Source: an uncultured Alphaproteobacteria bacterium (GTDB lineage: Bacteria > Pseudomonadota > Alphaproteobacteria > Rs-D84). Taken from it: DNA of 64,000 nt. The DNA is taken from assembly GCA_947646585.1 (NCBI GenBank), contig CANSHD010000002.1, forward strand, positions 203,614 through 267,613, given 5' to 3'. Below, in pieces: positions 10,997-64,000 of this stretch (positions are counted from its first letter, which is position 1; each line of letters opens with the position of its first letter). The translations under genes were made by a program, and so were the position numbers. The notes beneath the pieces were generated by a model. The model ran no database searches and was not told the DNA's origin. It saw only the letters and a list, made by a program, of their open reading frames with translations.

Positions 10997-11035
10997 ATAA
11001 GCCTTGAAAAAATACGCGCAATATGCCAGAATATA

Positions 11036-11091
11036 AGGCATATAGCCGTTGGTTTATATGCCTAATTAAATTGAACCCTTTTATTAGGCAT
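11036..11091 (+). promoter_or_regulatory. overlapping inverted repeats containing the TATGCCTAAT/ATTAGGCATA motif
   Basis: AGGCATATA (11036..11044) pairs with TATATGCCT (11054..11062). TATGCCTAAT (11056..11065) pairs with ATTAGGCATA (11082..11091). The two pairings exclude each other. The motif recurs upstream of other Cys-rich paralogs. Confidence 0.5.
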
Positions 11092-11109
11092 AACAGAAGG
11101 AATAAAAAC

Positions 11110-11751
11110 ATGCAGAAATCGGGAATTTATAAAAAATTAACATATGCCATTTTTAACGTTGGATTCCTATGCGGGATGATGAATGGGGTCCATGGTGCGA
11201 CTGTTGATTTGGCAGGCAACCCCAGCAATTCAGAACAGCCGAGCATAAATGGAGATACCGCGCAGCAATATTATAAATGCAGCAACACTATTACGCCTAC
11301 ATCTGGATGGCAATGGGCGGGGTATATGAGAATTAGCTATACGTCAATAGCTAGGAAAACCGGCAGCAGCGGTGCACCCCATATTTTGTCCGGCTGTTCT
11401 TTTGTCTCTTATCTTTGTGAGGAAGATCGCTACAAAAGTGGTAATACGTGCGCAAAATGTGCGACTTCGCCGAATACGAATAAACAACTCTATGCCGTAA
11501 GTGCGTCTGATAGAAGCAGTGGCCAAAGCTTTCATAATAATACGGCATGCAATTATTGTAGTTATAATGAGTACAAAACTGTATATAATCCTGTGCCGGG
11601 TGTTTCGCTGGATATGTGTGTTGATTGTCCGGGCGGCGGGGAAAGTGATGGTGTGGGCGCAATCACAACATGCTGCCTGCCGTCGGGCACAAAATCCAAT
11701 GATAATACCGGTGATTTTGAGATTATTGATGGAAAGTGTTGTTATAGCTAA
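11110..11751 (+). CDS. secreted cysteine-rich protein, family member P1
   Basis: Start moved to the ATG at 11110 (MQKSGIYKKLTYAIFNVGFLCGMMNGVHG signal peptide). C-terminus is ...CVDCPGGGESDGVGAITTCCLPSGTKSNDNTGDFEIIDGKCCYS. Confidence 0.75.
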   Translation: MQKSGIYKKLTYAIFNVGFLCGMMNGVHGATVDLAGNPSNSEQPSINGDTAQQYYKCSNTITPTSGWQWAGYMRISYTSIARKTGSSGAPHILSGCSFVSYLCEEDRYKSGNTCAKCATSPNTNKQLYAVSASDRSSGQSFHNNTACNYCSYNEYKTVYNPVPGVSLDMCVDCPGGGESDGVGAITTCCLPSGTKSNDNTGDFEIIDGKCCYS

Positions 11752-16503: not shown

Positions 16504-16586
16504 TTATACCCTTGCGTTGCATTAAAGATTCTAGTATAAATTTCATAGAACTTCAAGAATGATATATTTTGCGCGGAGGGCGAAAA

Positions 16587-18533
16587 ATGGAAGCCGGTTT
16601 ATCAGTTGTTTTTGCGAATAAGATAGTATGGATTGCATGCGGCGGCATGGCGGTTATGATGCTGGCGGCAATCGGGGCGCTGTTTTTTGTGTCGCGCAAA
16701 TCGCAGAAAGTAATGGAATCTTTGCTGGGCATTATGTTACAGCCGGAGCGCGTAAAAATCCACGACGCGTCGCGTGTTCTGCGCACACTGATGGCGGACG
16801 AAATCGCAAAGATAGAGGCCGGATTCAAAACCATGTCCGACACCCTGCGCGCCCAGATTGCGGCCGCGGACAAATTGAACGAAGAACTGGGGCTGCAGAA
16901 TGAAAAACTGGTCGCGACCGCGGATGCGGCCACCAAGAAACTGGTAACGATGTCCCAGCGTCTGGACAATACCGTAACCGGACTGCACGACGTTGTAAAT
17001 TCGGATACGTGGCACGACGTTGAAACGGCGACCGCGCGCTTTAACGAGACGATATCGGAATTGCTGGCGCGCATAGACGCAACATCGCAGGAGGCCGCCG
17101 CCCGCATCGCCCACATTCAGGAACAGATTGACGCCTGGCAGGAATCGGGCCGCCAGTTGTCGGAGCGCTTAACAGCGGAATTTGAATCGAACGGCACGCA
17201 AATGAAAGACATGTCCGAACAGTCGGCCGCCCTGCGCGATCAGCTGGGGGCGCTGTCGCAGTCCGTGGCGGACGGCTTTGGCGCGGTAAAGTCCGCGGCG
17301 GCGGATTACGAGTCGGTTATGACCGGCAACGACAAGCTGCTGGGCGAGCATATATCCAAAATGGAAAACTTTAGCAAACAGTCAAAGAAACAGTTAACCG
17401 CGCAGATGAACACCCTTACCAACACAGCCAATGTTGTCGGCGGCCAGGTGCGTCTGGCGGAATCGTCCATTGACAAGCAGGTGCGCAAGTTAACGGACGC
17501 GGTTGAAACACTGATGTCGTCGGCCACCACAACGGAAAATTCCGTCCGCGGCATATCGACGGAGCTGGCGACGCTGACAAACCGCTTTAACGGCGAGATA
17601 AAGGAATTTGCGACGGGCGTCGTGTCCGAGTTAAAGACGGTGTCGGGCGTTGCGAATGTGACGCTGGAAAACACCAAGACGGCGGCGGGCGCATTCTCTG
17701 AATCCGTGCGCGCAATGGCGACCGGCGTGCGCGAAACGCTGATTGAAATGAACACGGCACACACTCAGCTGTCGGGCCAGTCGGCCGGCCTGATAAAAAT
17801 GTCGGCTGAAACAACCGCCCAGCTGCAGCCGCTGTCGGCGTTGATAGAAAAATATTATGCGGCCCTGCCCGATTTGTCGCGCGGCTCGGCCAAGACGACG
17901 GAGACGCTTGAAAAGATTGTCGGCAGTCTGAATGAAAAAATCAATTTAATGCGCGACACTGTTTCGGAATCGATGAATGCGATATCGGATTCGTCCGTAA
18001 AGCTGGAAGACTTGGCGGGACAATCGCGCCAACAGATGATAGATTTAATGGCGGATTACGCCAAGGCCGTGAACACCATGCAGACACTGAACAAACAGAT
18101 GATGGTTGCGCGCGCGTCCGCCCCGATGGATGCCATAAAGACGGCGCCGGCGGATTCATTTGCCCGCGTCAGCAGCCAGGATTTCCTGAAACAGAGCGAA
18201 AAGCTGTTTGAAAAAATGCATGAACAGTCGCTGGATTTAACGCGTGCGGCGGGTGCGGAAATACCGGACGTCGTGTGGAAGAAATATCATGCCGGCGACA
18301 AGACAATATTTTCAAAGTGGCTGGCCAAAATGATGGCGGCGGCGGATAAAAAGCGTGTTCGTGAAATGCTGAAATCCGATGCCGTGTTCCGTTCCCAGGC
18401 AACACAGTTCGTACGCAGCTTTGACAAAGTTCTGGCCGCGTCGCGCCAGGCGGACAATGCAGACAAACTGGCGGCGACACTGATAAAAACGGATTTAGGA
18501 CAGATTTATGCCGCATTAAAGGGGCATGTATAA
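16587..18533 (+). CDS. membrane-anchored long coiled-coil protein
   Basis: Start set at ATG 16587, with a GGAGGG RBS 6 nt upstream. One N-terminal TM helix, then about 600 aa of heptad-like sequence. Confidence 0.7.
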   Translation: MEAGLSVVFANKIVWIACGGMAVMMLAAIGALFFVSRKSQKVMESLLGIMLQPERVKIHDASRVLRTLMADEIAKIEAGFKTMSDTLRAQIAAADKLNEELGLQNEKLVATADAATKKLVTMSQRLDNTVTGLHDVVNSDTWHDVETATARFNETISELLARIDATSQEAAARIAHIQEQIDAWQESGRQLSERLTAEFESNGTQMKDMSEQSAALRDQLGALSQSVADGFGAVKSAAADYESVMTGNDKLLGEHISKMENFSKQSKKQLTAQMNTLTNTANVVGGQVRLAESSIDKQVRKLTDAVETLMSSATTTENSVRGISTELATLTNRFNGEIKEFATGVVSELKTVSGVANVTLENTKTAAGAFSESVRAMATGVRETLIEMNTAHTQLSGQSAGLIKMSAETTAQLQPLSALIEKYYAALPDLSRGSAKTTETLEKIVGSLNEKINLMRDTVSESMNAISDSSVKLEDLAGQSRQQMIDLMADYAKAVNTMQTLNKQMMVARASAPMDAIKTAPADSFARVSSQDFLKQSEKLFEKMHEQSLDLTRAAGAEIPDVVWKKYHAGDKTIFSKWLAKMMAAADKKRVREMLKSDAVFRSQATQFVRSFDKVLAASRQADNADKLAATLIKTDLGQIYAALKGHV

Positions 18534-18816: not shown

Positions 18817-19089
18817 ATGAAAAAAACTTTAGTGATTATATGTGGTGGCGTACTGTTTGCCGGTCCGGCAATGACAATGACGTGCAGCATTAGTTCGGTG
18901 CCGGCATCTTGCATAGCAAATACCGAAACTTGCAGTGGGGGATATTGTACAACCACCTATAAATATACCGCGGCCAGTCAAAAGTGCACATGCTCAGGCA
19001 ACGGATGCTGCACATGTGCATATTTATCAAATCCGTTGTGCACCCAATGCCCGACCTCGTTCAAAGGCGTGGAATGTCCATTATGCTAA
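18817..19089 (+). CDS. small secreted Cys-dense peptide (90 aa)
   Basis: AGGAG RBS and signal peptide MKKTLVIICGGVLFAGPAMT. The mature part of about 70 aa has about 15 Cys. Confidence 0.65.
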   Translation: MKKTLVIICGGVLFAGPAMTMTCSISSVPASCIANTETCSGGYCTTTYKYTAASQKCTCSGNGCCTCAYLSNPLCTQCPTSFKGVECPLC

Positions 19090-19107: not shown

Positions 19108-19509
19108 ATGCGAAAGAATATTTTATTGGCGTGTGCGGTTGTGTCCGCAACAACAATCTCCAATGCTTTGGCGGACTGCAATCCATCGGGCACCAGCTGC
19201 AGCGCATGTACAACATACAGGTGCAATTCAGGTTATTACGGAACAGCAACATCTGGCAGTTCCGGCTGTACGGTCTGTCCGTCAAATGCAACATGCGCCG
19301 GCGGCAATGGTTCAACTTTTATATGCAACCAGGGGTATTATAAAAGCGGCTCTGCCTGTGCGCGCTGTCCGGCATCGGGCGGAGTGTACGGCACGACCAA
19401 GTCCACGGGGGCAACGTCCATAACGGCATGTTATATTCCGTCCGGAACCGCATTTACTGACACCGGTGGCAGTGGTTCGTACACAGGCGACTGTTATTAC
19501 ACCAATTAA
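19108..19509 (+). CDS. secreted cysteine-rich protein, family member P2
   Basis: Signal peptide and CxxGYY units. C-terminus is CARCPASGGVYGTTKSTGATSITACYIPSGTAFTDTGGSGSYTGDCYYTN. Confidence 0.8.
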   Translation: MRKNILLACAVVSATTISNALADCNPSGTSCSACTTYRCNSGYYGTATSGSSGCTVCPSNATCAGGNGSTFICNQGYYKSGSACARCPASGGVYGTTKSTGATSITACYIPSGTAFTDTGGSGSYTGDCYYTN

Positions 19510-19531
19510 GACAATCGCCCTTAACGGGCGA

Positions 19532-21097
19532 TTAAAAATCAAATGACAGGGATAGTGTTGCGCTGTATGACATTCCCATATTGTCATGTAGCGCCCCTAT
19601 TCCGACATAAATAATCGCATCGTCTTCCGGCAAAGAAAGTCCAATTCGTGCATCGGCCTGCAGGCCGCCGTCGTTGTCTGAAATTATTCGGGCGTCATAT
19701 GTATAATTAATGTCTGTGGTTTTATGCGTATGGCGCGCAATGACACCGGCCCTAAGATTTATATCGGTTGAATGTTGTATAACATTTGCATAACGTGCCG
19801 CCAGCCCCACAATCGGCGTTAGCGTCATGTTATCTGCTACCAGAAATTTCGGCCCGGTGTCGGCATAAAAATCAGCGGCAAAGCCCGACGGGTCGGACGC
19901 GGTTGCGGCGCCCGATTGTAATACCGGCGTGGTGAACCGGGCCGCGGTTATGGTAATGCCGGAATCGGCAAAAATATGCGGCGCGTCATACCGGACATAT
20001 GCGTCACCGCCCGCCAGTTTGGCCGAATAATCATCGATACCGTCCGTGAAATTCATATCCGCCGCATGAATTGTAACCGATGCGCGCACCGGTTTGGCTG
20101 TGCCGGTGTTCAAGCCCGCCCTGATTCCGTATGCATCAATATTTTGACCGGTGATAATAAACGGTGCGATTTGCATTGGAGCCGGCACCCCGTCATCCGT
20201 GTGCATTGCGCCGACGTGTCTGTTAAATGTCTGTATGGGGCGGGCCAATGCGCGCGTGTTGATGCGCATAGATTTGTTCATTATGCGCCCCAGCGCGGGC
20301 ATGTCTGTCGCCCGGTCCAGACGTTGCAGCAGATTGTCATCGGGATTTATCGTACGCAGGGCGTTTAAAAATTCGCCCGTCTGATTTCCCATTATTTTAT
20401 AATAATCCGTTTCACGTGCCAATTCAGCGTACAAGGCGCCGCCGCGAATCACCGTGCGCAACGCATACAGCGGATTTATATCGTCGGCATGCAGATGCAT
20501 TGTGCCGCTGCCCGTGACACGCCAGAAAATCGGCGTGTTAAAATCAATGTCTGCCATTTTTATGTGCAGCTCGTTATCGCCGACCAACTCTATCGGCACC
20601 GGCATCGCACGCGACATAAGCATTATTTCGGGCGACAGAACAATTCCGGAATCGACCAGTATGACTTTGTCCGCGGCGGACGATATGCGCCGAATATCCG
20701 TCCACTGTAAATCGGCCGCCCTGTACACGATGATATTGTAGTTGTCGGCGACATTTATGTCCGTAATGTCATCGGGCGTGCGAATAATTTGCGTTAAGCT
20801 GGCGCTTGCGCCCAATGTAATTTCGCCGTCAATCGTGCCGCTGTTTTTAATATAAACATCACGGCCGTCCGCGACAAACACGTCGCCGGACAAAACGCCA
20901 TGGTTCTGCAGGTAAGATGATGCGGTAATGTTGATTTGATTAAAGTCCAGAAAAGCTCCACCGTCAACAACAGTGCTGTCCGCAATATTCAAGATATCGC
21001 CGTACATGTTGCTGTCAAAATATTCTGCCATGGCCGGCATAGGTATCAACATAATGCACAGCATAAAACGATGCTTCACCAATCCCCCCATCTCCAA
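19532..21097 (-). CDS. autotransporter-like outer-membrane protein
   Basis: 521 aa with signal peptide ...MLIPMPAMA and a repetitive passenger region. C-terminal beta-barrel-like alternating pattern ends ...SATLSLSFDF (terminal Phe). The exact start is ambiguous. Confidence 0.7.
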   Translation of the reverse strand: MEMGGLVKHRFMLCIMLIPMPAMAEYFDSNMYGDILNIADSTVVDGGAFLDFNQINITASSYLQNHGVLSGDVFVADGRDVYIKNSGTIDGEITLGASASLTQIIRTPDDITDINVADNYNIIVYRAADLQWTDIRRISSAADKVILVDSGIVLSPEIMLMSRAMPVPIELVGDNELHIKMADIDFNTPIFWRVTGSGTMHLHADDINPLYALRTVIRGGALYAELARETDYYKIMGNQTGEFLNALRTINPDDNLLQRLDRATDMPALGRIMNKSMRINTRALARPIQTFNRHVGAMHTDDGVPAPMQIAPFIITGQNIDAYGIRAGLNTGTAKPVRASVTIHAADMNFTDGIDDYSAKLAGGDAYVRYDAPHIFADSGITITAARFTTPVLQSGAATASDPSGFAADFYADTGPKFLVADNMTLTPIVGLAARYANVIQHSTDINLRAGVIARHTHKTTDINYTYDARIISDNDGGLQADARIGLSLPEDDAIIYVGIGALHDNMGMSYSATLSLSFDF

Positions 21098-21803: not shown

Positions 21804-22346
21804 TTAGTTTTTATAATAGCAGTTTCCGGTATATTCAAACGAGCCTGTCGAATCGCTGGACTTGGTGCCCGCCGGGATATAACACTCTGTTATCGCCGTG
21901 GCGCCGGGCCCCGACGTGGTGCCTGCAACGCCACCCGATGACGGACATGCGGTGCAACCACTGCAGCTGGTTTTTAAATTGTTCAGTTTTGCCGTGCCGT
22001 AATACCCCTTTTGACAGCGCGCGGTTATATCGTATGTGCAAACATTGTTGACGCATCCTTTGCTTGCCACCTTGTCGCAACCACCGCCCATGTCGGTAAC
22101 CGTTTCGCTGTTGCATGTGGTGGGGTCACATACTATCGGATCGATTGGATCAACGACGCCTACATTGCATGGCTCGCAACAAGTGGCATCATACCTTATA
22201 CATTCGCCATATACGGGCCCGTTTACGTCCTGAGAAATCCTTCGACATTCGAAACATGTTATTGTTGGGTCGACAAAGACTGCGTATGCATTTCCAATCA
22301 ATGTCACACCTGCACCGATTGCGGATATTATTATTTTGGTTTTCAT
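21804..22346 (-). CDS. secreted cysteine-rich protein, family member P3
   Basis: Start moved to ATG 22346 (AGGAG RBS; MKTKIIISAIGAGVTLIGNAYA). C-terminus is CTACPSSGGVAGTTSGPGATAITECYIPAGTKSSDSTGSFEYTGNCYYKN. Confidence 0.8.
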   Translation of the reverse strand: MKTKIIISAIGAGVTLIGNAYAVFVDPTITCFECRRISQDVNGPVYGECIRYDATCCEPCNVGVVDPIDPIVCDPTTCNSETVTDMGGGCDKVASKGCVNNVCTYDITARCQKGYYGTAKLNNLKTSCSGCTACPSSGGVAGTTSGPGATAITECYIPAGTKSSDSTGSFEYTGNCYYKN

Positions 22347-26935: not shown

Positions 26936-28045
26936 TCACTGCGCGGTCAGGCGTTCGTATACTTTTATTGTATCCGCCAGCATCCGGCGACGCGTATAGC
27001 GCATACGAAAACGCGCATATCCCGCAACCGCCATTTTGGCACGCAGTGACTTGTTTTCTATCAGGCGCATCATGGCCGCCGCGTATTCCGACGGGTTTAT
27101 CGTATGCTCAGGCCCCATGTCCACAAACAGTGCCGCATCGCCAAACATTTCAACCATTGCGCTTTCGTTCGTGGATACCACGGGCAAATTGTACGCCATG
27201 GCCTCTATGCCGGCAAAAGAACACGCCTCTGTCCGCGATGCGAACAGTGCCGCGTCCGCGTGCTCATAACACTCGCGTATTTTCGCCGCATCTGTTACCA
27301 GCCCCAGACGCACAATCGGCAGGTCTTTCAATTCATCGAACAGCGCCTCGTCCTCGCGCGCATGGCCGCCCAGAACAACCACCTCTATCTTATGTTTTTT
27401 TGCCACCATGCGTATCGCTGGTATGATTTTCGTAAAGCCCTTATGCGGCGACCATCCGTTTGCAAAAATAAATCTGAACACGCCGTCTTTTGGTTTCTTT
27501 GATTTTATCTCCGGCTTTTCCACACCGTTATAAATAACGCTCCACGGACGGCGGCAACGCCAATAATCCATATATTTGCGCCCGTTGTCGCCGACCAGTA
27601 TTATTTCATCCATGTTGAAATAAGGGTCGGCCGGAACAAAGCCCGGCGCGGTGTTCATCAAGGGCTGGCAATGCAGAACGCCGATTGTTTTACAGTAAAT
27701 GCGGCTTTTTATCATGTACGCCAGGCCTTCGCACTGCAGACAGTCGCTTTTTACAATCAGGTTCGGCATCGCGCTTAAACGTGGCGCGACATACGTAAAC
27801 ACCGCCTCAAACAGTGCCGGGAATGGATATGCCATCGGGTGATGTATCTGAAGCTCGCCCTCTGTATCGACGATACGAATCTCCTTGTATTCCGGCGCGC
27901 GATAAAAGACAATGTTGTATGTCGATATGTTTGACGGCATGCCTGCACGCAAAACATTAAAGTATGTGGCGATACCGCTTTGATAGCGTGCGTCACGCGC
28001 GTCAATTTCAACAATGTTTATTTGTTTTTTCACGGCGCCCCCCAT
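26936..28045 (-). CDS. family-1 (GT4-type) glycosyltransferase
   Basis: 369 aa. The C-terminal half has the typical GT4 pattern ...LFASRTEACSFAGIEAMAYNLPVVST... The start codon abuts the stop of P4. Confidence 0.8.
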   Translation of the reverse strand: MGGAVKKQINIVEIDARDARYQSGIATYFNVLRAGMPSNISTYNIVFYRAPEYKEIRIVDTEGELQIHHPMAYPFPALFEAVFTYVAPRLSAMPNLIVKSDCLQCEGLAYMIKSRIYCKTIGVLHCQPLMNTAPGFVPADPYFNMDEIILVGDNGRKYMDYWRCRRPWSVIYNGVEKPEIKSKKPKDGVFRFIFANGWSPHKGFTKIIPAIRMVAKKHKIEVVVLGGHAREDEALFDELKDLPIVRLGLVTDAAKIRECYEHADAALFASRTEACSFAGIEAMAYNLPVVSTNESAMVEMFGDAALFVDMGPEHTINPSEYAAAMMRLIENKSLRAKMAVAGYARFRMRYTRRRMLADTIKVYERLTAQ

Positions 28046-28882
28046 TTATGCCTTATAAGGACAGCCGCCCGTTATGCTGTATGTGCCGACCCCGTCGTTA
28101 TATTCTGTTCTGGGTGGAAATGCGATGCAGCTGGTTATACCGTATCCGGTGGGCGAATACCAAGAGTAACCGCCGCTGGAATTTGTCGGCAAATTATGCG
28201 TGTATGTGGTCGCGGTCGCCGTGCCGGAATTAAAATCTTTCATGCCGGGGCATGCCGCGCAGCACGAGGTTAACTGGCCGGTCGACGATACGTTGCTGGT
28301 TCCATTGCATACCGCGGTATTCGCCGTTAAGTACCATCCGGAAACACAGCCGGCCGCCTTGTATGATTGAGATGTATACGCCCCATCCCATGTTCCCGTT
28401 GATGCCGTCAGGCCGTATTTTGCAAATACGCCGGTGGATTCGCAGAACATACCCGTTTCGTTGCACGTGCCGGCGCCGTTACAGCCGGGCACGGCGTTGG
28501 CACCGTTGTCAAACATGCACTTGTACCATGTGCAATACAGCGTATCCAGGCCACTTATCACGCTTTCAGACGGACCGGAACCTGTTCCCGTGCCGGTGCC
28601 GCCGCCAACGGACGTTCTGTCATAACATTCGGTCGGGTCAAAAACACAGCCTGTAATCCCCGTATCTGTTCTGACACAGCCCGGAAGCGATAAGTTTGCC
28701 CACAAATTTCTGTTTTCAAATCCTGTGTATCGCGGGTATGTGACGGTGCCTGTATAATTTGTATATCCCGCTTTCCCGCTTACTGAACCTGTTATTATTT
28801 GCTTTGCCGCCATTGCATGTTGGGCAAAGCAGGCCACCCCGGCAATCCCGACCCCGCAAGCCCTGATTAACGCTCTTTTCAT
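28046..28882 (-). CDS. secreted cysteine-rich protein, family member P4
   Basis: Signal peptide MKRALIRACGVGIAGVACFAQHAMA. C-terminus is ...CCAACPG...GYGITSCIAFPPRTEYNDGVGTYSITGGCPYKA. Confidence 0.75.
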   Translation of the reverse strand: MKRALIRACGVGIAGVACFAQHAMAAKQIITGSVSGKAGYTNYTGTVTYPRYTGFENRNLWANLSLPGCVRTDTGITGCVFDPTECYDRTSVGGGTGTGTGSGPSESVISGLDTLYCTWYKCMFDNGANAVPGCNGAGTCNETGMFCESTGVFAKYGLTASTGTWDGAYTSQSYKAAGCVSGWYLTANTAVCNGTSNVSSTGQLTSCCAACPGMKDFNSGTATATTYTHNLPTNSSGGYSWYSPTGYGITSCIAFPPRTEYNDGVGTYSITGGCPYKA

Positions 28883-49116: not shown

Positions 49117-49797
49117 ATGAAAAAATGCCTAATTTCAACACTGGTAATATTTGGCGGATTATACGCATCGCCTTGTAATGCCGCATTATCTTTACAGATG
49201 TGTCCTGGAACTTCAATCTCCGTTGGAACAAAATGCTCTGCAATCCCAGACATGTTAAACTATTTTATCATAATGCCCGACTGTATGGATCGGCCAACTG
49301 GTCAAATGAAAAATACTTGTAAAACTTATTTATGTGATGGTCATTGCGAATGCAGAACGACACCATGTACAACTTTAATCGATCCAGACCCTATTCTCTT
49401 ATGTGATGCAAGTTGCTTTACCAATATAACATGGGAAACCTCTGCTTTTTCCGGGGTTCAAACAGGCACCCCAACAATTTCTGTAAGCAGCAATTGTACT
49501 AACTGCCCCGACAAATTGTACAGATGTCGCAGCGGATATTATACAACCGACGTATTTGCCACACTGGGGGTGCCGGACGGAACGACAAGCAGCTCAAAAC
49601 TTACTTGCACAGAGTGTCCGGCGGCCGCCGATGAAAAGACAGACGACGACGGTCCGATCATTATCGGCGCCCCGTCATATGTTGCATCCGCTGCGGGTTT
49701 GCCTTCTTTGACCGATTGCTATATCAAATCCGGCGCATCTATTACAAATGATGTCGGAACATATGAATATACCGCGGATTGCAAGTACACGAACTGA
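49117..49797 (+). CDS. secreted cysteine-rich protein, family member P5
   Basis: Start set at ATG 49117 (MKKCLISTLVIFGGLYASPCNA). C-terminus is CTECPAAADEK...LPSLTDCYIKSGASITNDVGTYEYTADCKYTN. Confidence 0.75.
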   Translation: MKKCLISTLVIFGGLYASPCNAALSLQMCPGTSISVGTKCSAIPDMLNYFIIMPDCMDRPTGQMKNTCKTYLCDGHCECRTTPCTTLIDPDPILLCDASCFTNITWETSAFSGVQTGTPTISVSSNCTNCPDKLYRCRSGYYTTDVFATLGVPDGTTSSSKLTCTECPAAADEKTDDDGPIIIGAPSYVASAAGLPSLTDCYIKSGASITNDVGTYEYTADCKYTN

Positions 49798-58040: not shown

Positions 58041-61000
58041 ATGGAAAAAAAGCGCAGTTTCCTTGGGTTTTTGGCATCTTTATTCATTGTCTTTTTCACG
58101 GCAAATGCATTTGCCGCGGGTTATACCTGCGATAAATTAAAGAAATACACGTCGTGTAATGCGAACTATTATTTAAATGGCACGGACGTTGGAAACGCCT
58201 GTGTTGCATGCGCGACGGGTTATACAAAAGCCGCTGATTCCAATGTCGGGGCGCAGTATTGTACCCAAAGCTGCACCGTTAATTGTAAGCAACAGACATG
58301 TCCCGCCAACGCGACATGTACCCACGGAACTAAAACCGCTACCGGAACCAGAAATCAAACACAGGCGGCAGGCGTGTGTAGCGCGACACAACCAACCTGC
58401 TCCATCACGATAAGCTGTAACGCGTCTTACTATAAGACAAGCAGCAATACCTGTCAGGCTTGCGGCACCGGGCAGTACAGCGCAAAAGGCGCAACCAGCT
58501 GTAGTTCTTGTACAAACAAACCTGCAAACTCTTATTATACAGGCAACGCATCATCTAACGCATGTCCGTGGGCATGTAATAGCGGCTATCATAAAAACGC
58601 AGCCGGCACAGCATGTTATCCGAACACAAAATATGTTACCTGCTCTGGCGGATACTATATTGCCAAGGGTGCAACCGCATGTTCTACGGAGTGCCCGGCC
58701 AACAAATGGTGCGCAGGCGGTACATTTACCATATCATCTGCAGGTGCGGCGGCCGATACCGGAATAACCGGCAGCTGTCCGAGTAATTATACATCACCCA
58801 AAAAGAGTTCCTCTTACACGGCGTGCAGCACAAGTTGTACTGTTAACTGTTCCGGTAATGCAACATGTACATACGCTAATGCGACATGTACATATGATAC
58901 AACAAAAACATATACTGGGACAAAAACATGCCAGAACGTTGCGTGCAGCACACAAAGTTCTTGCAGCGCCAGTGGTACGTGCCCTGTCAACGGATTTAAT
59001 TGTAATTCATGCTATGTAAAGAATTCTGGCGGAACGGCATGTATTGGCGCCACATATACGATAACATATGCAAATGGCGGCGGCACCGGTAGCAGCCAGA
59101 CGCAATCTGTCAAATATAAGGGTTCATTTACAACGAAAGCCGCGAGTACATTCAGTCGTCCGGGCTATACGTTTAGCAGTTGGGGTGGCAATTATCCAAA
59201 TGCCAACAGCTCCTATACATATAATACGTGCGGCAACACAACGTTAACAGCAAGCTGGAATGCATGTACTGCAAACACCGGCGCCGCCGGCACATGCGGA
59301 TGCGGTTCAACCCAATATCCGAACGGGAGTGGCTGTTCGAACTGTAGCGTATCTTGTAGCGGAGTCACAGGTTTCACGCTTGGTACATACAATGTCTGCA
59401 ATGCCCAAACGAACAACATTTGTTATCGCAACTGTACGACTGCGGACGTTGCAAATTCCAAGACCGTGTCCGGAACCGTTACAAAAGGCGGAACCAGCAC
59501 ATGTAAGGCGACCGCATGTAAAGACGGATATTACTATAAAGACGGCGTCTGCAACGTATGTCCGGCAAATGCGGAATGTGACCCGAACCCGGGCAGCAAT
59601 CCGATTACCTGTGATGACGGTTATACGCTGAATGACGCCGGAACGGGCTGTACCGCGAACAAATATAATGTAACGTATTCCTGCGCCCCGGGCACAGGCA
59701 CAGTCGCGGGGAATACGGCGACATATAACCTGTCCTATTCGCCAAAGAGCAGCTCTTGTACGGCACCGTCAAAGCACAAGTTTGTCGGATGGACAATATC
59801 CGGCACAAGCACCGTGGTAACACCTGGCGCAAGCTTTACTTGGAAATATTTGGAAAACAAGACGTTTACGGCAAAATACGAGGCCACTTCCTGTGACAGC
59901 GGCCAGTATTTGAGCGGTGGCGCCTGTGTATCATGCCCCAGCGGATATACCGCCAGCGACCTGAACGCGACCAGCAATACGCAGTGCTATAAAGCATGCT
60001 CACAAAACTGTGTCTCGCCCAGCTGTCCGGCGAACTCAACCGAGTGCACGTTTGACACAACCGCAAAGTGGACCGGAAAGCAGTATTACAATTCATCCAC
60101 ATGCCAGATAAACGACGGCCAAAAAAGCGACTGTCCGATTGCGACACTGAATTGTAAGCGCACATATTATACAAACGGCTCTGTCTGCTCGTCCTGTTCC
60201 AGCTTGGGCGACGGCAGCTATACTCAGTCGCTGTCAACGAACAACAGTTCGCCATACGGCTGCTATGCAATGTGCACAATCCCATGTACACAGCAGGCGT
60301 GCCCGGCACATGCAACATGTACACATGGAACAGAAAAATCGGCCGGAGGCATCTATTATCCAAGCGAAGACTGTACTGCACCGGGGATTAGCTGTACCAT
60401 AAATATCACATGTGATAGCGGCTATGCGCTGGACGCAGGCTCGGCTACCTGTAATCCGGTTGTCACGCCGGTTGTATTGAACCGCAATTACAACAGCACG
60501 GATTCAGCGACGCTTGCGACGATATATCAGAAGTATGAAACAGGCTGGTATTCCAATTCGGCGGCGACAACCACGCTTTCCAAAGCGACGGTGCCGACAC
60601 GTGCAAATTATAATTTCTTGGGCTACTACACCGCAAGAACGGGTGGAAGTCAGGTAATCAAAGCGGACGGCACCCTGCCGATGAACACGACATATGAAAC
60701 GGCAACCTCTGTCACATTGTATGCCCAGTGGAGTCTGAACAACACAGATTGCCAAGCAGGGAAATACTACAACGGTAGCTCTCATGTGACATGTCCGGCC
60801 GGCAAATACTGCCCGGGCACGGGGAGCACGCCGATTGGAACGGCCGGATGCGCGGTAAACTGTCCGGCGGACGCGGCGGGCGGCACGGTGACATCCGATG
60901 CGGGCTCCAGCGTGGCGACGGCCTGCCGCACGGTTCGCACCAATCAGAATCTTAGCGACAATAGCGGTCGCGGCGACCAGACATGCTATTACAACACGCA

Positions 61001-64000
61001 AACCGCGAATTATTCCACAGGATGCACCATTAAAATTACGGCGTGTAATGCGGGATACTATCGCGAACAGGAGAACAGCACGACCTGCTCTTCCACGGAT
61101 ATCGGGGAATACAGCCCGGCAAACGACTTGGAAAAGTATCTGTGTAAGAACTTAAGCGGGGCGGCAACCGACGTGACAACGGCGGCTAAAAACTCCGGCG
61201 CGGCGACATTGTGCTATAACCCGTGCGGAAACGTGACGATTACAAACGGTACCCGCGTGCCTGTTAATGAAAAAGAGTTCTATGACGGCGCCAAGATACC
61301 GGCGTGTACATATACCACGAACTGTAACACCGGTTACCAGGCCAGCGGCACGACATGCGTTGCAAAAGTGCTGACAATCACGCTGAACCACAACAACGGA
61401 ACCGCCAACAGCACCATTTACTTAAAGTATGCGGACGGCTGGTATTCCAACTCCAACGCGTCGGCGTCATCAAAAATAACCACGGTAACGGTACCGTCAA
61501 AGGGCGACGGCATGGCATTCGAGGGTTATGTATCAACGAACAACGATGTTGTTGTCGGATCCGACGGCAAGCTGACAACCAACTATACTGTATTTAGCGC
61601 GAACGCCATAATTACGGCGCAATATGGTAATCGTACGGCGATACACTGTGATGCCGGAAAGTACTATGAAGGCGGCAGCAAGACCACATGCACGACATGT
61701 CCGGCGGGCAGCTATTGCCCGGGTGTGGACACGTTCGTCGGCGTTGACAGTCCGCGCGGTATAAACACCTGTGCGTCACTGGGCGGCACATACACCCATG
61801 CGGACGGCGCGGCGGCCACAACGGTCAGCTCGGCCGCGGGCGCGACGGGTCCGGCCGGATGCTATGCGACGAACGTTTCATACACGTCGTCCACGAACAA
61901 GGCGACCGGCAGCCAGACCTGCTATTTCAACGAATCAACAACGTCTTATACCGACAGTTGCAAGGACAAGGTCGTGTTAAGCTGCGTCGGCGGATACTGG
62001 CGCGCGAACGCGGCGGATACGGACTGCGTCGCGGTCGGCATCGGTTACTACAGCGCAGACAAGGCGACAACTCGCACGGCCTGCCCGAACCTTTCAACAA
62101 CGACGGGCGTCAAGACGTTCACGGAAACATCTGAAACGGTGACACAGTGCTATCTGGGCAACATATGGTACCAGGGACAGCACAGCGGTCACAGACGCAG
62201 CTGCTATCATACGGCGGACGCCACTGATACAAATGTGTCCAGCGGATACAGCTATAACTGCGACGTGTCCGTAATCGTGACATGCGATGCCGGATACTAT
62301 GACGACGGAAATTATACCTTTACAAACAGCAAGGGCGAAAGAGAACGCGACTGCGTGGCCGTGACAGATAAAAACTCTTACAGCCCGGCCCAATCGTTCT
62401 TCACATCCGAAGAGGCTCAACCGAATCAGGAAACACCGGGTAGCTCGACCAAGCTGCACAACTGTCCGGAGACCAAGTCCATTGCGAACGGTACGGCGCG
62501 CCGCGTGTTCAACGCCACATGGACAGCATCGGATTACGCGGTATGCGAATACAAGGCCGCAACATGTGACGCGGGGTATCGCGCGATTACAAGTGGTGCC
62601 ATTGCAAAGTGCGTATGGGACGACCCGGATGCGTGTCCGGAAGGGTTCTATTGCCCGGACGGCGGCGAGGAGCCGATAGAATGTCCGAAAGACAAAGCCG
62701 GACGCGACGGCACGACGGAAGTCGGTGCAAAGTCAATCGAACAGTGCTTTATTGCATACGACCCCTATTCCGCATTCAAAAACGGTACGGGTTCCGCAAT
62801 ATGCAACTATTCGGGCGACTCGAAAGACTATACGCGTTGCCATGACATTACCGCGAAATCTTGTAACGCCGGTTATTATTATCGCGATGCGGGAAGTGCG
62901 ACCTGTGTCGAGGTTGTAAGCGGGAACTATAGCCCGGCCGGAAACATCCAGCAGATTTCGTGCCCGAGCGGCGGAAACGGTTCCAACCAATTCGCGGCGA
63001 ACTGGGATGCATGTTACAAGAACTGTGAAATAACGGTTGCGCATTCTTCCACGGTTGCGGCCAAAGACAACACAGTGTTTGGTATAAGCGCCAACGGTTA
63101 TGCGGCATGCTCGTTCCATGTGACATGCCAGACAGGTTATTCGCCCAACAATAACGACACGGCGGCCCCGACATGCGATGCAAACCGCTATACGGTGACG
63201 CTGGATAAAAACGGCGGCGACGGGAATGTCGCGGCCAGCATAGAGTGCACGTTTGACAGCGGCGCATGCGCGTTGCCGGCGACGACCGGTCTGACACGCG
63301 CCGGATACAGCGTGGGCGCCAAATGGTGCACCGAGAAAGACGGTACGGGCACATGCTATAACGGCGGAACAACCGTGACGACCAACATATCGGCAAACGG
63401 AACCGCGACAACGCTGTACGCGATTTGGACGCCCAATGTGTATCAGATTACACTGAAACACGCGGACGCCACGGTTGCCGGCGCACCCGCCACGGCATAT
63501 CTGAAATATGCGACAGGCTGGTTCGCAGACAACAGCGCGACATTACCGCTGAGCCAGATGAGCAAGACACCTGAAAAGACAGGATATGAATTTGCAGGAT
63601 ACAAGGCGGCCAACAACACCGTCATTGTGGATACAAACGGCATGTTCCAGACAACACAGGCGGCCCTGACCTTTACAACCGCGGCGGCAGACGTAACAGT
63701 TGTATGGAGTGCGGGCAACACAAAGTGCGCGGCCGGTACATATTACCAGGGCACGGGCGCGACGTGCCTGCCATGTACGGACAACCATTATTGTCCTGGC
63801 GGCAGCTTTGCCACCGACGGCGGCCAGGCGGGTCTGAACGAATGCCGCGACAACGGTAAGACCGCGGCGGACGCCCATGCATCGTCGGAAACGCAGTGCT
63901 TTAAAGAAGACCTGCCGACATATGTGGCGGCGCACGGCAAGGGAACGCAGAAGTGCTATTTTGACACGGAAAACCTGACCTATTCCACGGAATGCACGGA
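58041..64000 (+). CDS. giant secreted cysteine-rich repeat protein (more than 1986 aa; continues past window end)
   Basis: Absent from the ORF track because no stop occurs. I translated the frame from ATG 58041 (RBS AGAGGAAG) to 64000 and found no stop. Signal peptide is MEKKRSFLGFLASLFIVFFTANAFA. CxxGYY / CxxCPxGxYCPG Cys-rich units alternate with six Listeria-Bacteroides (InlB B-repeat/Flg_new)-like modules. Confidence 0.85.
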   Translation, partial: MEKKRSFLGFLASLFIVFFTANAFAAGYTCDKLKKYTSCNANYYLNGTDVGNACVACATGYTKAADSNVGAQYCTQSCTVNCKQQTCPANATCTHGTKTATGTRNQTQAAGVCSATQPTCSITISCNASYYKTSSNTCQACGTGQYSAKGATSCSSCTNKPANSYYTGNASSNACPWACNSGYHKNAAGTACYPNTKYVTCSGGYYIAKGATACSTECPANKWCAGGTFTISSAGAAADTGITGSCPSNYTSPKKSSSYTACSTSCTVNCSGNATCTYANATCTYDTTKTYTGTKTCQNVACSTQSSCSASGTCPVNGFNCNSCYVKNSGGTACIGATYTITYANGGGTGSSQTQSVKYKGSFTTKAASTFSRPGYTFSSWGGNYPNANSSYTYNTCGNTTLTASWNACTANTGAAGTCGCGSTQYPNGSGCSNCSVSCSGVTGFTLGTYNVCNAQTNNICYRNCTTADVANSKTVSGTVTKGGTSTCKATACKDGYYYKDGVCNVCPANAECDPNPGSNPITCDDGYTLNDAGTGCTANKYNVTYSCAPGTGTVAGNTATYNLSYSPKSSSCTAPSKHKFVGWTISGTSTVVTPGASFTWKYLENKTFTAKYEATSCDSGQYLSGGACVSCPSGYTASDLNATSNTQCYKACSQNCVSPSCPANSTECTFDTTAKWTGKQYYNSSTCQINDGQKSDCPIATLNCKRTYYTNGSVCSSCSSLGDGSYTQSLSTNNSSPYGCYAMCTIPCTQQACPAHATCTHGTEKSAGGIYYPSEDCTAPGISCTINITCDSGYALDAGSATCNPVVTPVVLNRNYNSTDSATLATIYQKYETGWYSNSAATTTLSKATVPTRANYNFLGYYTARTGGSQVIKADGTLPMNTTYETATSVTLYAQWSLNNTDCQAGKYYNGSSHVTCPAGKYCPGTGSTPIGTAGCAVNCPADAAGGTVTSDAGSSVATACRTVRTNQNLSDNSGRGDQTCYYNTQTANYSTGCTIKITACNAGYYREQENSTTCSSTDIGEYSPANDLEKYLCKNLSGAATDVTTAAKNSGAATLCYNPCGNVTITNGTRVPVNEKEFYDGAKIPACTYTTNCNTGYQASGTTCVAKVLTITLNHNNGTANSTIYLKYADGWYSNSNASASSKITTVTVPSKGDGMAFEGYVSTNNDVVVGSDGKLTTNYTVFSANAIITAQYGNRTAIHCDAGKYYEGGSKTTCTTCPAGSYCPGVDTFVGVDSPRGINTCASLGGTYTHADGAAATTVSSAAGATGPAGCYATNVSYTSSTNKATGSQTCYFNESTTSYTDSCKDKVVLSCVGGYWRANAADTDCVAVGIGYYSADKATTRTACPNLSTTTGVKTFTETSETVTQCYLGNIWYQGQHSGHRRSCYHTADATDTNVSSGYSYNCDVSVIVTCDAGYYDDGNYTFTNSKGERERDCVAVTDKNSYSPAQSFFTSEEAQPNQETPGSSTKLHNCPETKSIANGTARRVFNATWTASDYAVCEYKAATCDAGYRAITSGAIAKCVWDDPDACPEGFYCPDGGEEPIECPKDKAGRDGTTEVGAKSIEQCFIAYDPYSAFKNGTGSAICNYSGDSKDYTRCHDITAKSCNAGYYYRDAGSATCVEVVSGNYSPAGNIQQISCPSGGNGSNQFAANWDACYKNCEITVAHSSTVAAKDNTVFGISANGYAACSFHVTCQTGYSPNNNDTAAPTCDANRYTVTLDKNGGDGNVAASIECTFDSGACALPATTGLTRAGYSVGAKWCTEKDGTGTCYNGGTTVTTNISANGTATTLYAIWTPNVYQITLKHADATVAGAPATAYLKYATGWFADNSATLPLSQMSKTPEKTGYEFAGYKAANNTVIVDTNGMFQTTQAALTFTTAAADVTVVWSAGNTKCAAGTYYQGTGATCLPCTDNHYCPGGSFATDGGQAGLNECRDNGKTAADAHASSETQCFKEDLPTYVAAHGKGTQKCYFDTENLTYSTECT

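What the first reader, a model, noticed from the sequence alone, without database searches (positions are those of the whole stretch)
19357..19509. Shared C-terminal module defines a dispersed five-member family
Five secreted proteins at separate loci end with the same roughly 45-50-aa pattern.
- P1: 11110..11751
- P2: 19108..19509
- P3: 21804..22346
- P4: 28046..28882
- P5: 49117..49797

The pattern is C-x2-C-P ... G-x-x-(A/S)-I-T-x-C-Y-I-P-x-G-T-x3-D-x2-G-x-(F/Y)-x-Y-T-x-x-C-x-Y-x-x-stop. P2 ends ATSITACYIPSGTAFTDTGGSGSYTGDCYYTN. P3 ends ATAITECYIPAGTKSSDSTGSFEYTGNCYYKN. P5 ends LPSLTDCYIKSGASITNDVGTYEYTADCKYTN. P1 and P4 are more diverged.

The N-terminal regions differ widely. An invariant extreme C-terminus on variable bodies suggests a sorting, anchoring or recognition tag. 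It could also be a common receptor-binding domain.
Basis: seen in the sequence. Interest (0 to 1): 0.7.

Follow-up and report, generated by a model that had tools for sequence, protein, structure and literature searches.

The report
Conserved cysteine-rich tail on variable exported proteins
Five small exported, cysteine-rich proteins of an uncultured gut alphaproteobacterium end in the same folded ~65-residue domain, a distant bacterial relative of the eukaryotic ephrin-receptor/TNF-receptor cysteine-rich repeat, and it stays almost unchanged while the rest of each protein evolves fast or is swapped outright.

Summary
All five ORFs exist at the stated coordinates (P3 and P4 on the minus strand). 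Each has a signal-peptide-like N-terminus and 13-19 Cys, and all end in the described pattern. A profile built only from database proteins scores P3 98, P2 90, P5 39 and P1 25 bits. P4 scores 9 bits, just above the best of 500 shuffles (7.9), so it is a marginal member.

The module is not a short linear tag. It is a confidently predicted all-beta, disulfide-rich domain (pLDDT 91). Its first ~45 residues are a remote Ephrin_rec_like (PF07699) / TNFR-like repeat. Its last ~25 residues (CYIPxGT..SD..G..YT..CYYxx-stop) match no known model, occur once per protein, and sit at the very end.

The family has 1156 clusters at 50% identity. Every genome hit is a gut Alphaproteobacteria MAG, one of them labelled Candidatus Enterousia. 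A sister MAG of about 1 Mb carries at least 13 dispersed copies.

Between near-identical strains, neighbouring genes are 94-100% identical and the module 94-100%, but the bodies only 48-76%. One whole gene is replaced in its slot.

Most likely this is a constant structural or docking domain on diversifying exported or surface proteins. A dedicated sorting role is possible but untested. I rate it a new variant of a known domain kind.

The parts
19108..19509 (+). P2, 133 aa. It has a signal-peptide-like N-terminus (MRKNILLACAVVSATTISNALA|D), two partial CxxGYY..CxxCP repeats and then the C-terminal module. The module is at 19318-19506; the finding's span 19357-19509 is the part from CxxCP to the stop.
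   Evidence: - ORF and translation.
- 89.8 bits to the database-only profile.
- AF2 pLDDT above 90 for residues 40-133.
- Module alone, pLDDT 91.
21804..22346 (-). P3, 180 aa, with the module at 21807-22022. A promoter-like site (22620-22592) and the rpoD terminator lie upstream.
   Evidence: - (98.3 bits).
- Orthologues P0001-P0011: module 94-100% identical, body 48-76%.
- Module dN/dS 0.02-0.03.
49117..49797 (+). P5, 226 aa, with the module at 49519-49794. A 13-residue insertion follows CxxCP.
   Evidence: 38.8 bits; shuffle maximum 8.8.
11110..11751 (+). P1, 213 aa, with the module at 11557-11748. This is the 'CC...CC' variant: the two Tyr residues that follow the fourth and last Cys are both replaced by Cys.
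   Evidence: - (E=2e-4 from a profile that did not include P1).
- (24.6 bits).
- (covariation).
- in a sister MAG the same slot holds a different family member.
28046..28882 (-). P4, 278 aa. The diverged module is at about 28049-28351, with a ~25-residue insertion between CxxCP and ITxC. Marginal member.
   Evidence: -: 9.0 bits against a shuffle maximum of 7.9; 26.6 against 18.3 without bias correction.
- end-to-end alignment, hmm positions 2-70.
- only one homologue cluster.
- Its stop codon abuts the start of a GT4 glycosyltransferase gene at 26936-28045.
58041..64000 (+). Giant Cys-rich ORF of at least 1986 aa with 139 Cys, running off the window. It has a signal peptide and a Listeria-Bacteroides repeat. 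It is built from the same CxxGYY / CxxCP blocks and has four internal stretches that resemble the module including the cap. The relationship is weak.
   Evidence: - (ORF).
- (PF09479, 3e-9).
- (hits only with bias correction off).
- (hhalign probability 48%, E 1.8e-4).

Best explanation
The five genes belong to a large family of small cysteine-rich proteins. The family was found only in uncultured, animal-gut Alphaproteobacteria MAGs, one of which is labelled Candidatus Enterousia.

The shared C-terminus is a folded, disulfide-stabilised domain of about 65 residues.
- The part from C-x2-G-Y-Y ... C-x2-C-P ... G-A-T-x-I-T-x-C is a remote relative of the Ephrin_rec_like / TNF-receptor-type cysteine-rich repeat.
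- The last ~25 residues (C-Y-I-P-x-G-T ... D-x2-G ... Y-T-x2-C-Y-Y-x-x-stop) are a family-specific cap. It folds back so that the final strand pairs with the 'CYIP' strand.

This domain is the constant end of the protein and is kept by strong purifying selection on the amino-acid sequence. The N-terminal bodies are diversified by rapid divergence, intragenic mosaicism and whole-gene replacement in fixed chromosomal slots.

Inferred, not shown:
- The proteins are exported by Sec, oxidised in the periplasm, and exposed on or released from the cell.
- The constant domain serves as the common structural or docking end, binding an invariant bacterial component.
- The variable bodies face a changing partner, host immune system or phage.
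For: Family and statistics:
- 1156 representative clusters match at E<=1e-3 and 196 at E<=1e-10. All of the top 150 are 79-312 aa.
- The module is terminal in 166 of 174 proteins, and in nearly all of 70 six-frame hits in 43 loci.

Domain identity:
- Relatives P0020, P0021, P0024 and P0027 score 25-40 bits to PF07699, above its 23.1-bit threshold. The Pfam domain ends exactly at the 'ITxC' Cys.
- 20 of 150 members hit PF07699 at E<0.01.
- The module consensus hits PF07699 positions 14-48 at E=0.0036.

Fold:
- AF2 gives pLDDT 82.8 for whole P2, above 90 over residues 40-133, and 91.1 for the module alone. Both models are all-beta hairpins.
- The Foldseek lists are made up almost only of TNFR, Eph, CaSR and thyroglobulin cysteine-rich domains.
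- The cap is part of the fold. The Tyr after the fourth Cys and the Tyr after the last Cys are both replaced by Cys in 3 of 231 sequences, and never singly.

Selection:
- For P3 against strain L040, the module has dN 0.012 and dS 0.43, while the body has dN 0.26 and dS 0.57. Neighbouring genes have dN 0.004-0.03 and dS 0.09-0.15.
- Amino-acid identity of neighbours is 94-100%, against 64-84% for P3 and 58-82% for P2.
- The xseA-recN slot holds P1 here and the unrelated member P0020 in the sister MAG. DNA homology resumes at the stop codon.

Copy number and dispersal:
- There are 13 copies in 9 loci of one ~1 Mb MAG, with no shared neighbour gene.

Lineage context:
- All 39 genome loci are gut Alphaproteobacteria MAGs, one labelled Ca. 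Enterousia.
- That group has genomes under 1 Mb and is proposed to be partner-dependent (PMC12306168).
Against: - No experiment or localisation data exist. The export route beyond the inner membrane, surface exposure and any docking partner are all inferred.
- The window's own five proteins do not reach any Pfam threshold.
- Foldseek E-values are not significant; the best are 0.27 and 1.1.
- dN/dS in the bodies is below 1 (0.2-0.5). Positive selection is therefore not shown. The elevated dS points to allele exchange rather than fast point mutation.
- No conserved neighbouring gene suggests a partner.
- A purely structural cap would not obviously require the tail length to be fixed at four residues.
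Confidence: 0.55

Rival explanations
1. The module is a C-terminal secretion or surface-attachment domain. An as yet unidentified outer-membrane machinery of these bacteria recognises it. The logic would match the T9SS C-terminal domain or the C-terminal domain of T11SS (Slam) cargo: Sec export first, then recognition of a folded C-terminal domain.
For: - The module is strictly terminal, once per protein, on otherwise unrelated bodies.
- The tail length after the last Cys is nearly fixed: 4 residues in 139 of 174 proteins.
- Protein-level conservation is extreme.
- The family is restricted to one lineage.
- No lipobox or membrane anchor is present that could otherwise hold the proteins on the cell (by inspection).
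Against: - No candidate machinery was identified.
- No conserved neighbour gene exists.
- There is no similarity to any known sorting-domain model.
- Part of the module is an ordinary repeat type that also occurs internally in the same proteins. Possibly the whole module occurs internally in the giant ORF (weak).
Confidence: 0.2
2. The module is itself the effector. It would be a conserved TNFR/Eph-type ligand-binding domain aimed at one invariant molecule of the host or partner cell. The variable bodies would be immunological or steric decoration.
For: - The fold class is one used for ligand binding in eukaryotic receptors.
- PF07699 is regarded as a domain of eukaryotic origin that is rare in bacteria (PMC6993872). 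A eukaryote-like protein in a host-associated, reduced-genome bacterium would fit (PMC12306168).
- The module is under strong constraint.
Against: - Thirteen or more paralogues with the same binding domain in a ~1 Mb genome would be redundant.
- Similarity to eukaryotic domains is remote and below threshold for the window proteins.
- No ligand is known for PF07699 repeats (PMC6993872).
Confidence: 0.15
3. The shared 3' end is kept alike at the DNA level, as a recombination anchor for cassette exchange or through gene conversion among paralogues, rather than for a protein function.
For: - P2 against strain L040 is a mosaic. The signal peptide and body have pS 0.76-0.88, but the module has dS 0.044.
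- Replacement of the P1 slot ends exactly at the stop codon.
Against: - The five paralogues share no DNA word longer than 11 nt. The only DNA alignment is 68% over 84 nt.
- In P3 the module has dS 0.27-0.43, at or above the neighbouring genes, with dN 0.006-0.012. Conservation is therefore on the amino acids.
Confidence: 0.05
4. The resemblance is a by-product of low-complexity, Cys/Gly/Thr/Ser/Tyr-rich composition, not homology. This is relevant mainly to P4 and the giant ORF.
For: - With HMMER's composition correction on, P4 scores only 9 bits and the giant ORF is not reported.
- P4 has no intermediate homologues.
Against: - P1, P2, P3 and P5 exceed every shuffle by 16-90 bits.
- P4 still exceeds all 500 shuffles and aligns end to end, ending at the stop.
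Confidence: 0.05

Closest known systems
Pfam PF07699 Ephrin_rec_like (formerly GCC2_GCC3), a TNF-receptor-like cysteine-rich repeat
   Same: - The motif C-x2-C-P-x-G ... G-A-T-S-x3-C is shared.
- The Pfam domain ends exactly on the module's fourth Cys in relatives that score above threshold.
- The predicted beta-hairpin, disulfide-rich fold retrieves TNFR, Eph and thyroglobulin cysteine-rich domains first.
   Different: - This family is bacterial and lineage-restricted.
- The five window proteins are below the Pfam threshold.
- The terminal 25-residue cap has no Pfam counterpart.
- The cap occurs once, at the very end.
- PF07699 is described as having emerged in eukaryotes, with only isolated bacterial cases (PMC6993872).
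Giardia variant-specific surface proteins (PF03302)
   Same: - Both are multicopy families of CXXC-rich extracellular proteins with variable bodies and an invariant C-terminus.
- HMM similarity is weak: P2 E=0.0077, and 5 of 150 members at E<0.01.
   Different: - From general knowledge, VSPs end in a transmembrane helix plus the cytoplasmic CRGKA tail. This family has no hydrophobic segment and the invariant part is a folded extracytoplasmic domain.
- Scores are far below the Pfam threshold of 31.4 bits.
- Mutually exclusive expression was not tested.
Folded C-terminal sorting domains of Gram-negative secretion (T9SS CTD; C-terminal domain of T11SS/Slam cargo)
   Same: The logic is the same: Sec signal peptide, then a variable passenger, then a conserved folded C-terminal domain shared by many cargo proteins in one genome.
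   Different: - There is no sequence match to any such model.
- The fold class differs: a small disulfide-rich hairpin stack rather than a beta-sandwich or beta-barrel.
- T9SS is not expected in Alphaproteobacteria (general knowledge).
- No machinery was identified.
Tripartite C-terminal sorting signals (LPXTG, PEP-CTERM, GlyGly-CTERM, MYXO-CTERM)
   Same: Conserved extreme C-terminus on diverse exported proteins.
   Different: Those signals are a short motif, a transmembrane helix and a basic tail. The last 30 residues here are polar (G/S/T/D/Y), folded and end in N, E or K. There were no NCBIfam hits.

Membership tests
Pfam PF07699 Ephrin_rec_like | HMM score at or above the gathering threshold (23.1 bits) | tested here: not met
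   P1-P5 have no PF07699 hit even at E<=10. The module consensus scores 17.5 bits, E=0.0036. Family relatives P0020, P0021, P0024 and P0027 do pass at 25-40 bits, and 20 of 150 members hit at E<0.01. The link is therefore transitive and remote.
Pfam PF07699 Ephrin_rec_like | Cysteine spacing C-x2-C-P-x-G ... C, with the domain boundary on a conserved Cys | tested here: met
   The alignments show this. Profile positions 1-48 or 14-48 end on the 'ITxC' Cys of the module.
TNFR-like cysteine-rich domain fold | Structural match to solved TNFR/Eph cysteine-rich domains | tested here: inconclusive
   The models are confident (pLDDT 82.8 and 91.1). The top Foldseek hits are OX40, DR4, DR6, CD40, 4-1BB, EphA2/B2 CRD, CaSR CRD and thyroglobulin. 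The best E-values are only 0.27 and 1.1, and TM-scores are at most 0.47.
Giardia VSP (PF03302) | HMM score at or above 31.4 bits; C-terminal transmembrane helix plus CRGKA tail | tested here: not met
   P2 scores 15.6 bits. None of the five sequences has a hydrophobic C-terminal segment.
Tripartite sortase/exosortase-type C-terminal signals | Short motif followed by a transmembrane helix and a basic cluster at the extreme C-terminus | tested here: not met
   The last 30 residues are polar and predicted to be folded. No NCBIfam model matches.
T9SS C-terminal domain | Match to the CTD models; host in Bacteroidota with T9SS genes | tested here: not met
   No Pfam or NCBIfam hit. The genomes are Alphaproteobacteria. 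The presence of T9SS genes was not examined.
Outer-membrane beta-barrel C-terminal signal | Terminal aromatic residue (usually Phe) ending an amphipathic beta-strand | tested here: not met
   The terminal residue is N, E or K in most members (CYYKN, CYYSN, CYYTN, CYYSE ...). By contrast, the neighbouring autotransporter-like ORF ends ...LSLSFDF.
Sec-exported proteins (signal peptidase I type) | N-terminal basic residues, a hydrophobic core and an AxA-like cleavage site; no lipobox | tested here: inconclusive
   Seen by eye and with a crude rule in P1-P5 and in 125 of 168 family proteins. No dedicated predictor was available.

The most novel reading that the evidence does not exclude
The capped C-terminal domain is the address label of a so far unknown surface-display or secretion route in reduced-genome gut Alphaproteobacteria. 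With it, the cell shows a large, exchangeable repertoire of eukaryote-like cysteine-rich 'heads'. This would be a bacterial counterpart of Giardia's variant surface proteins, used to attach to or evade a partner organism or the host immune system. The usually odd cysteine count would supply one free thiol for a covalent link.
Probability: 0.15. Interest if true: 0.8.

Novelty: new variant of a known kind. Interest (0 to 1): 0.5.

Why it matters
The related gut Alphaproteobacteria of order Rs-D84 (Ca. Enterousia) have genomes under 1 Mb. They lack respiration and standard transporters and are proposed to depend on a partner organism, but nothing is known about how they make contact (PMC12306168).

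At least 13 copies in about 1 Mb is a large investment for such a genome. Four features make this family a concrete candidate for the contact or evasion interface:
- it is exported;
- it is disulfide-rich;
- it diversifies fast on a constant, eukaryote-type domain;
- it gives a sequence handle (the module profile) for finding and counting the repertoire in metagenomes.

It would also be one of the largest bacterial expansions of a repeat type thought to be essentially eukaryotic (PMC6993872).

If the module proved to be a sorting domain, that would define a new secretion or anchoring signal.

Tried and rejected
- Direct Pfam and NCBIfam scans of the five proteins found nothing significant.
- A PDB sequence search with the module profile gave only chance hits (farnesyltransferase beta, E about 0.6).
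- Foldseek on the whole P2 model and on the module alone gave the right fold class but no significant E-value.
It was repeated with a tighter alignment.
- The adjacent Cys-rich ORF at 18817-19089 was tested as a sixth member and rejected: its score is inside the shuffle range.
- A homologue search for P4 aimed at bridging sequences returned only one cluster at 95% identity.
- Gene conversion or DNA repeats among the paralogues were rejected: the longest shared word is 11 nt.
- No partner gene was found in the neighbourhood; nothing is shared between loci except the family itself.
- The cap as a degenerate copy of an internal repeat: by eye, P-x-G-T..D..G resembles the start of a CxxCP repeat. 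A cap profile, however, finds nothing in the bodies beyond shuffled controls.
- A giant Cys-rich ORF in relative L014 does not end in the cap, so the cap is not shared by that large Cys-rich protein. The window's own giant ORF runs off the end, so its C-terminus is unknown.
- A CaaX-type lipidation motif does not fit: four, not three, residues follow the last Cys.
- dN/dS did not show positive selection; all values are below 1.

Full report
**1. The observation**

All five ORFs are present at the stated coordinates.
- P1: 11110-11751 (+)
- P2: 19108-19509 (+)
- P3: 21804-22346 (-)
- P4: 28046-28882 (-)
- P5: 49117-49797 (+)

The quoted C-terminal strings are exact. Each protein begins M-K/R-K, then a hydrophobic stretch, then an AxA-like site. 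Each contains 13-19 cysteines. The span given for the finding, 19357-19509, is the last 50 codons of P2 plus its stop.

**2. Is it more than chance?**

BLASTP:

| Pair | E-value |
|---|---|
| P2-P3 | 2e-17 |
| P2-P5 | 5e-10 |
| P3-P5 | 4e-9 |
| P1-P3 | 6e-6 |
| P4-P3 | 0.017 |

An HMM from P2, P3 and P5 alone, run on all 1271 six-frame ORFs of the window, recovers P1 at E=2e-4. It recovers nothing else and does not recover P4.

A profile built only from database proteins gives the scores below, compared with 500 composition-preserving shuffles of each tail.

| Protein | Score (bits) | Shuffle maximum |
|---|---|---|
| P3 | 98.3 | 6.2 |
| P2 | 89.8 | 7.7 |
| P5 | 38.8 | 8.8 |
| P1 | 24.6 | 5.1 |
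| P4 | 9.0 | 7.9 |

With the composition correction off, P4 scores 26.6 against a shuffle maximum of 18.3. It aligns end to end, up to its stop, across a ~25-residue insertion. P4's only database relative is one cluster at 95% identity.

Four members are therefore secure and P4 is a marginal, diverged member. The Cys-rich ORF just upstream of P2 (18817-19089) is not a member.

**3. Size and distribution of the family**

A search with P3 found 28 proteins. All are unnamed or 'hypothetical protein [Alphaproteobacteria bacterium]', and all end in the same module on different bodies.

A module profile searched against 1.84 billion representative proteins found 1156 clusters at E<=1e-3 and 196 at E<=1e-10. 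The top 150 are all 79-312 aa.
- In 166 of 174 proteins in hand, the module ends within three residues of the C-terminus.
- In 139 of 174, exactly four residues follow the last Cys (CYYKN, CYYSN, CYYTN, CYYSE ...).

A scan of 185,579 species genomes with one strict peptide pattern gave 39 loci. All are gut MAGs labelled Alphaproteobacteria or Proteobacteria (sample names include roe deer, yak and water deer). One is labelled Candidatus Enterousia.

One of these MAGs (CAMWON01) is syntenic with the window. Its neighbouring genes are 94-99% identical to the window's. In only nine fetched loci it carries 13 family genes, and those loci share no gene other than the family itself.

Only names of the 'hypothetical protein' type exist for the clusters looked up.

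Ca. Enterousia and its order Rs-D84 are described as having genomes under 1 Mb, no TCA cycle or respiration, and no standard transporters. A partner-dependent lifestyle is proposed for them (PMC12306168). The window's organism is not directly classified. The link to that order rests on the one labelled MAG among the family's hosts.

**4. What the module is**

The window's five proteins match nothing in Pfam or NCBIfam at significant levels. Family relatives do.
- P0020, P0021, P0024 and P0027 score 25-40 bits to PF07699 Ephrin_rec_like (threshold 23.1). The Pfam domain ends exactly on the 'ITxC' cysteine of the module.
- 20 of 150 members hit PF07699 at E<0.01. Smaller numbers hit TNFR_ELAPOR1_6th, NCD3G and Giardia VSP.
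- The module consensus hits PF07699 positions 14-48 at E=0.0036, 17.5 bits.
- The last ~25 residues have no match.

AlphaFold2 predicts P2 with pLDDT above 90 over residues 40-133. The module alone scores pLDDT 91.1. Both are stacks of short beta-hairpins.

Foldseek against the PDB gives no significant hit; the best E-values are 0.27 and 1.1. The lists, however, consist almost entirely of TNF-receptor family domains (OX40, DR4, DR6, CD40, 4-1BB), EphA2/EphB2 cysteine-rich domains, the CaSR cysteine-rich domain, thyroglobulin and EGF-like MSP1-19.

I conclude that the first two thirds of the module are a remote TNFR-like / Ephrin_rec_like repeat. The cap is a family-specific addition.

**5. The cap is folded and unique**

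In 231 sequences, the Tyr after the fourth Cys and the Tyr after the last Cys are both replaced by Cys in three cases (P1, P0087 and a CAMWON paralogue). They are never replaced singly. This fits the model, in which residues 109-110 and 129-130 of P2 form paired bridges.

A profile of the cap alone finds no copy inside the bodies of the family proteins beyond shuffled controls. Upstream internal matches to the module cover only its first 30 positions, C..GYY..C..CP. The cap therefore occurs once per protein and is always last.

The one possible exception is the giant ORF at 58041 to beyond 64000 (at least 1986 aa, 139 Cys, one Listeria-Bacteroides repeat). Four of its internal repeats align to the module, cap included, at hhalign probability 48% and E 1.8e-4. 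HMMER detects them only with the bias correction off. I treat this as weak evidence.

**6. How the family evolves**

Amino-acid identity to the window in three syntenic relatives:

| Relative | rpoD | 654-aa protein | AddA | GK-like | Autotransporter-like | P3 | P2 | 90-aa Cys-rich ORF |
|---|---|---|---|---|---|---|---|---|
| L040 | 100% (over the 234 aa held) | 99% | 97% | 96% | 93% | 84% | 82% | 58% |
| L042 | not in locus | 98% | 95% | 94% | 86% | 68% | 58% | 48% |
| L001 | 99% | 98% | 96% (over 227 aa) | 94% | 86% | 67% | 65% | 47% |

Within the P3 orthologues P0001-P0011, the module is 94-100% identical and the signal peptide 91-100% (45% in P0011). The body is only 48-76% identical.

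Nei-Gojobori estimates for P3 against L040:

| Segment | dN | dS | dN/dS |
|---|---|---|---|
| Module | 0.012 | 0.43 | 0.03 |
| Body | 0.26 | 0.57 | 0.46 |
| Neighbouring genes | 0.004-0.03 | 0.09-0.15 | 0.05-0.31 |

The module is therefore conserved at the amino-acid level while its synonymous sites drift. The body's excess divergence includes synonymous sites. That points to exchange of old, divergent alleles rather than only fast point mutation.

P2 against L040 is a mosaic. The signal peptide and body have pS 0.76-0.88, but the module has dS 0.044.

The slot between xseA and recN holds P1 (213 aa) in the window and the unrelated member P0020 (112 aa) in the sister MAG. Flanking DNA is 96% and 94% identical. 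Homology stops at window 10908 and resumes at 11750, which is P1's stop codon.

The five paralogues share no DNA word longer than 11 nt. Recent gene conversion among them is therefore excluded.

**7. Mechanism**

Shown:
- a folded, strictly terminal, strongly constrained cysteine-rich domain on diversifying bodies;
- many dispersed copies in a small genome.

Inferred:
- Sec export and periplasmic oxidation, from the N-termini and the cysteine content;
- exposure to an outside selective agent, from the pattern of divergence, which the neighbouring autotransporter-like gene shares;
- a common structural or docking role for the constant domain.

I put about 0.55 on this reading, 0.2 on a dedicated C-terminal-domain sorting or anchoring route, and 0.15 on the module being a conserved ligand-binding effector. 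DNA-level explanations and chance each get about 0.05 or less.

Anatomy and the lack of any model match exclude linear or tripartite sorting signals, the outer-membrane beta-signal, the T9SS CTD and a CaaX-type motif.

**8. Comparison and novelty**

The nearest known family is PF07699 Ephrin_rec_like / TNFR-like repeats. The window proteins fail its threshold, and the cap is new.

By logic the family resembles Giardia VSPs and cargo with a folded C-terminal sorting domain. It is a member of neither.

PF07699 is described as a eukaryotic invention of unknown function, with isolated bacterial occurrences attributed to transfer (PMC6993872). A bacterial expansion of more than 1000 clusters, with a lineage-specific terminal cap and cassette-like evolution, appears undescribed in the libraries and papers I could search.

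I rate it a new variant of a known kind, interest 0.5.

Noticed in passing
window 58041-64000 (+): Giant ORF of at least 1986 aa that runs off the window. It has a signal peptide, 139 Cys, one Listeria-Bacteroides repeat (PF09479, 3e-9) and long internal repeats of about 280 aa built from CxxGYY / CxxCP blocks. It is probably a huge surface protein. Its C-terminus is unknown.
   Followed up: partly
window 18817-19089 (+): 90-aa Cys-rich ORF (14 Cys) with a signal-peptide-like N-terminus, 18 nt upstream of P2. It is not a family member. It is the fastest-diverging gene in the region: 47-58% identity to its syntenic counterparts, against 94-100% for most neighbouring genes. No counterpart was detected in L002.
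   Followed up: partly
window 19532-21097 (-): 521-aa ORF convergent with P2. It ends ...LSLSFDF and has a weak Autotransporter beta-domain hit (PF03797, E 2.4e-4, below threshold). It diverges faster than its neighbours (93%, 86% and 53% identity in L040, L042 and L002), as expected for a surface protein. A hairpin at 19512-19534 lies between the two genes.
   Followed up: partly
family proteins (P0012-P0174) and window P1, P3, P4, P5: The predicted mature proteins usually have an odd number of cysteines.
- Where parity does not depend on the signal-peptide cut, the counts are 16/16, 21/21 and 7/7 odd.
- Where a Cys closely follows an AxA-like site, 50 are odd and 11 even.
- P2 and the shortest members (6 or 8 Cys) are even.

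This implies one unpaired or intermolecularly bonded Cys, probably in the body. No signal-peptide predictor was available, so the counts are approximate.
   Followed up: partly
window 10909-11749 versus L026 5077-6134: Whole-gene replacement in a fixed slot between xseA and recN. The window has P1 (213 aa); the sister MAG has P0020 (112 aa). Flanks are 94-96% identical at the DNA level, and the right breakpoint falls at the stop codon.
   Followed up: yes
window 28043-28048: The stop codon of P4 (28046-28048, minus strand) directly abuts the ATG of a GT4 glycosyltransferase gene (26936-28045; PF00534, 1.4e-16). This suggests co-transcription or translational coupling of an exported Cys-rich protein with a cytoplasmic glycosyltransferase.
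   Followed up: no
window 11557-11748 (P1 module); also P0087 and L038 5329-6147: 'CC...CC' variant of the cap. The two Tyr residues that follow the fourth and last Cys are both replaced by Cys, always together (3 of 231). This looks like an extra disulfide replacing a Tyr-Tyr contact.
   Followed up: yes
window 21804-22346 and 49117-49797: The bodies of P3 and P5 share a short motif upstream of the module (DPIDPIVCDPTTC in P3, DPDPILLCDASC in P5). Some bodies may therefore fall into subfamilies. This was not analysed.
   Followed up: no
window 16569-18533 (+): 654-aa protein with an N-terminal hydrophobic segment and a long, apparently coiled-coil, Ala/Gln/Thr-rich region. It has only a sub-threshold Baculo_PEP_C hit and is 98-99% conserved between strains. 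Function unknown.
   Followed up: no
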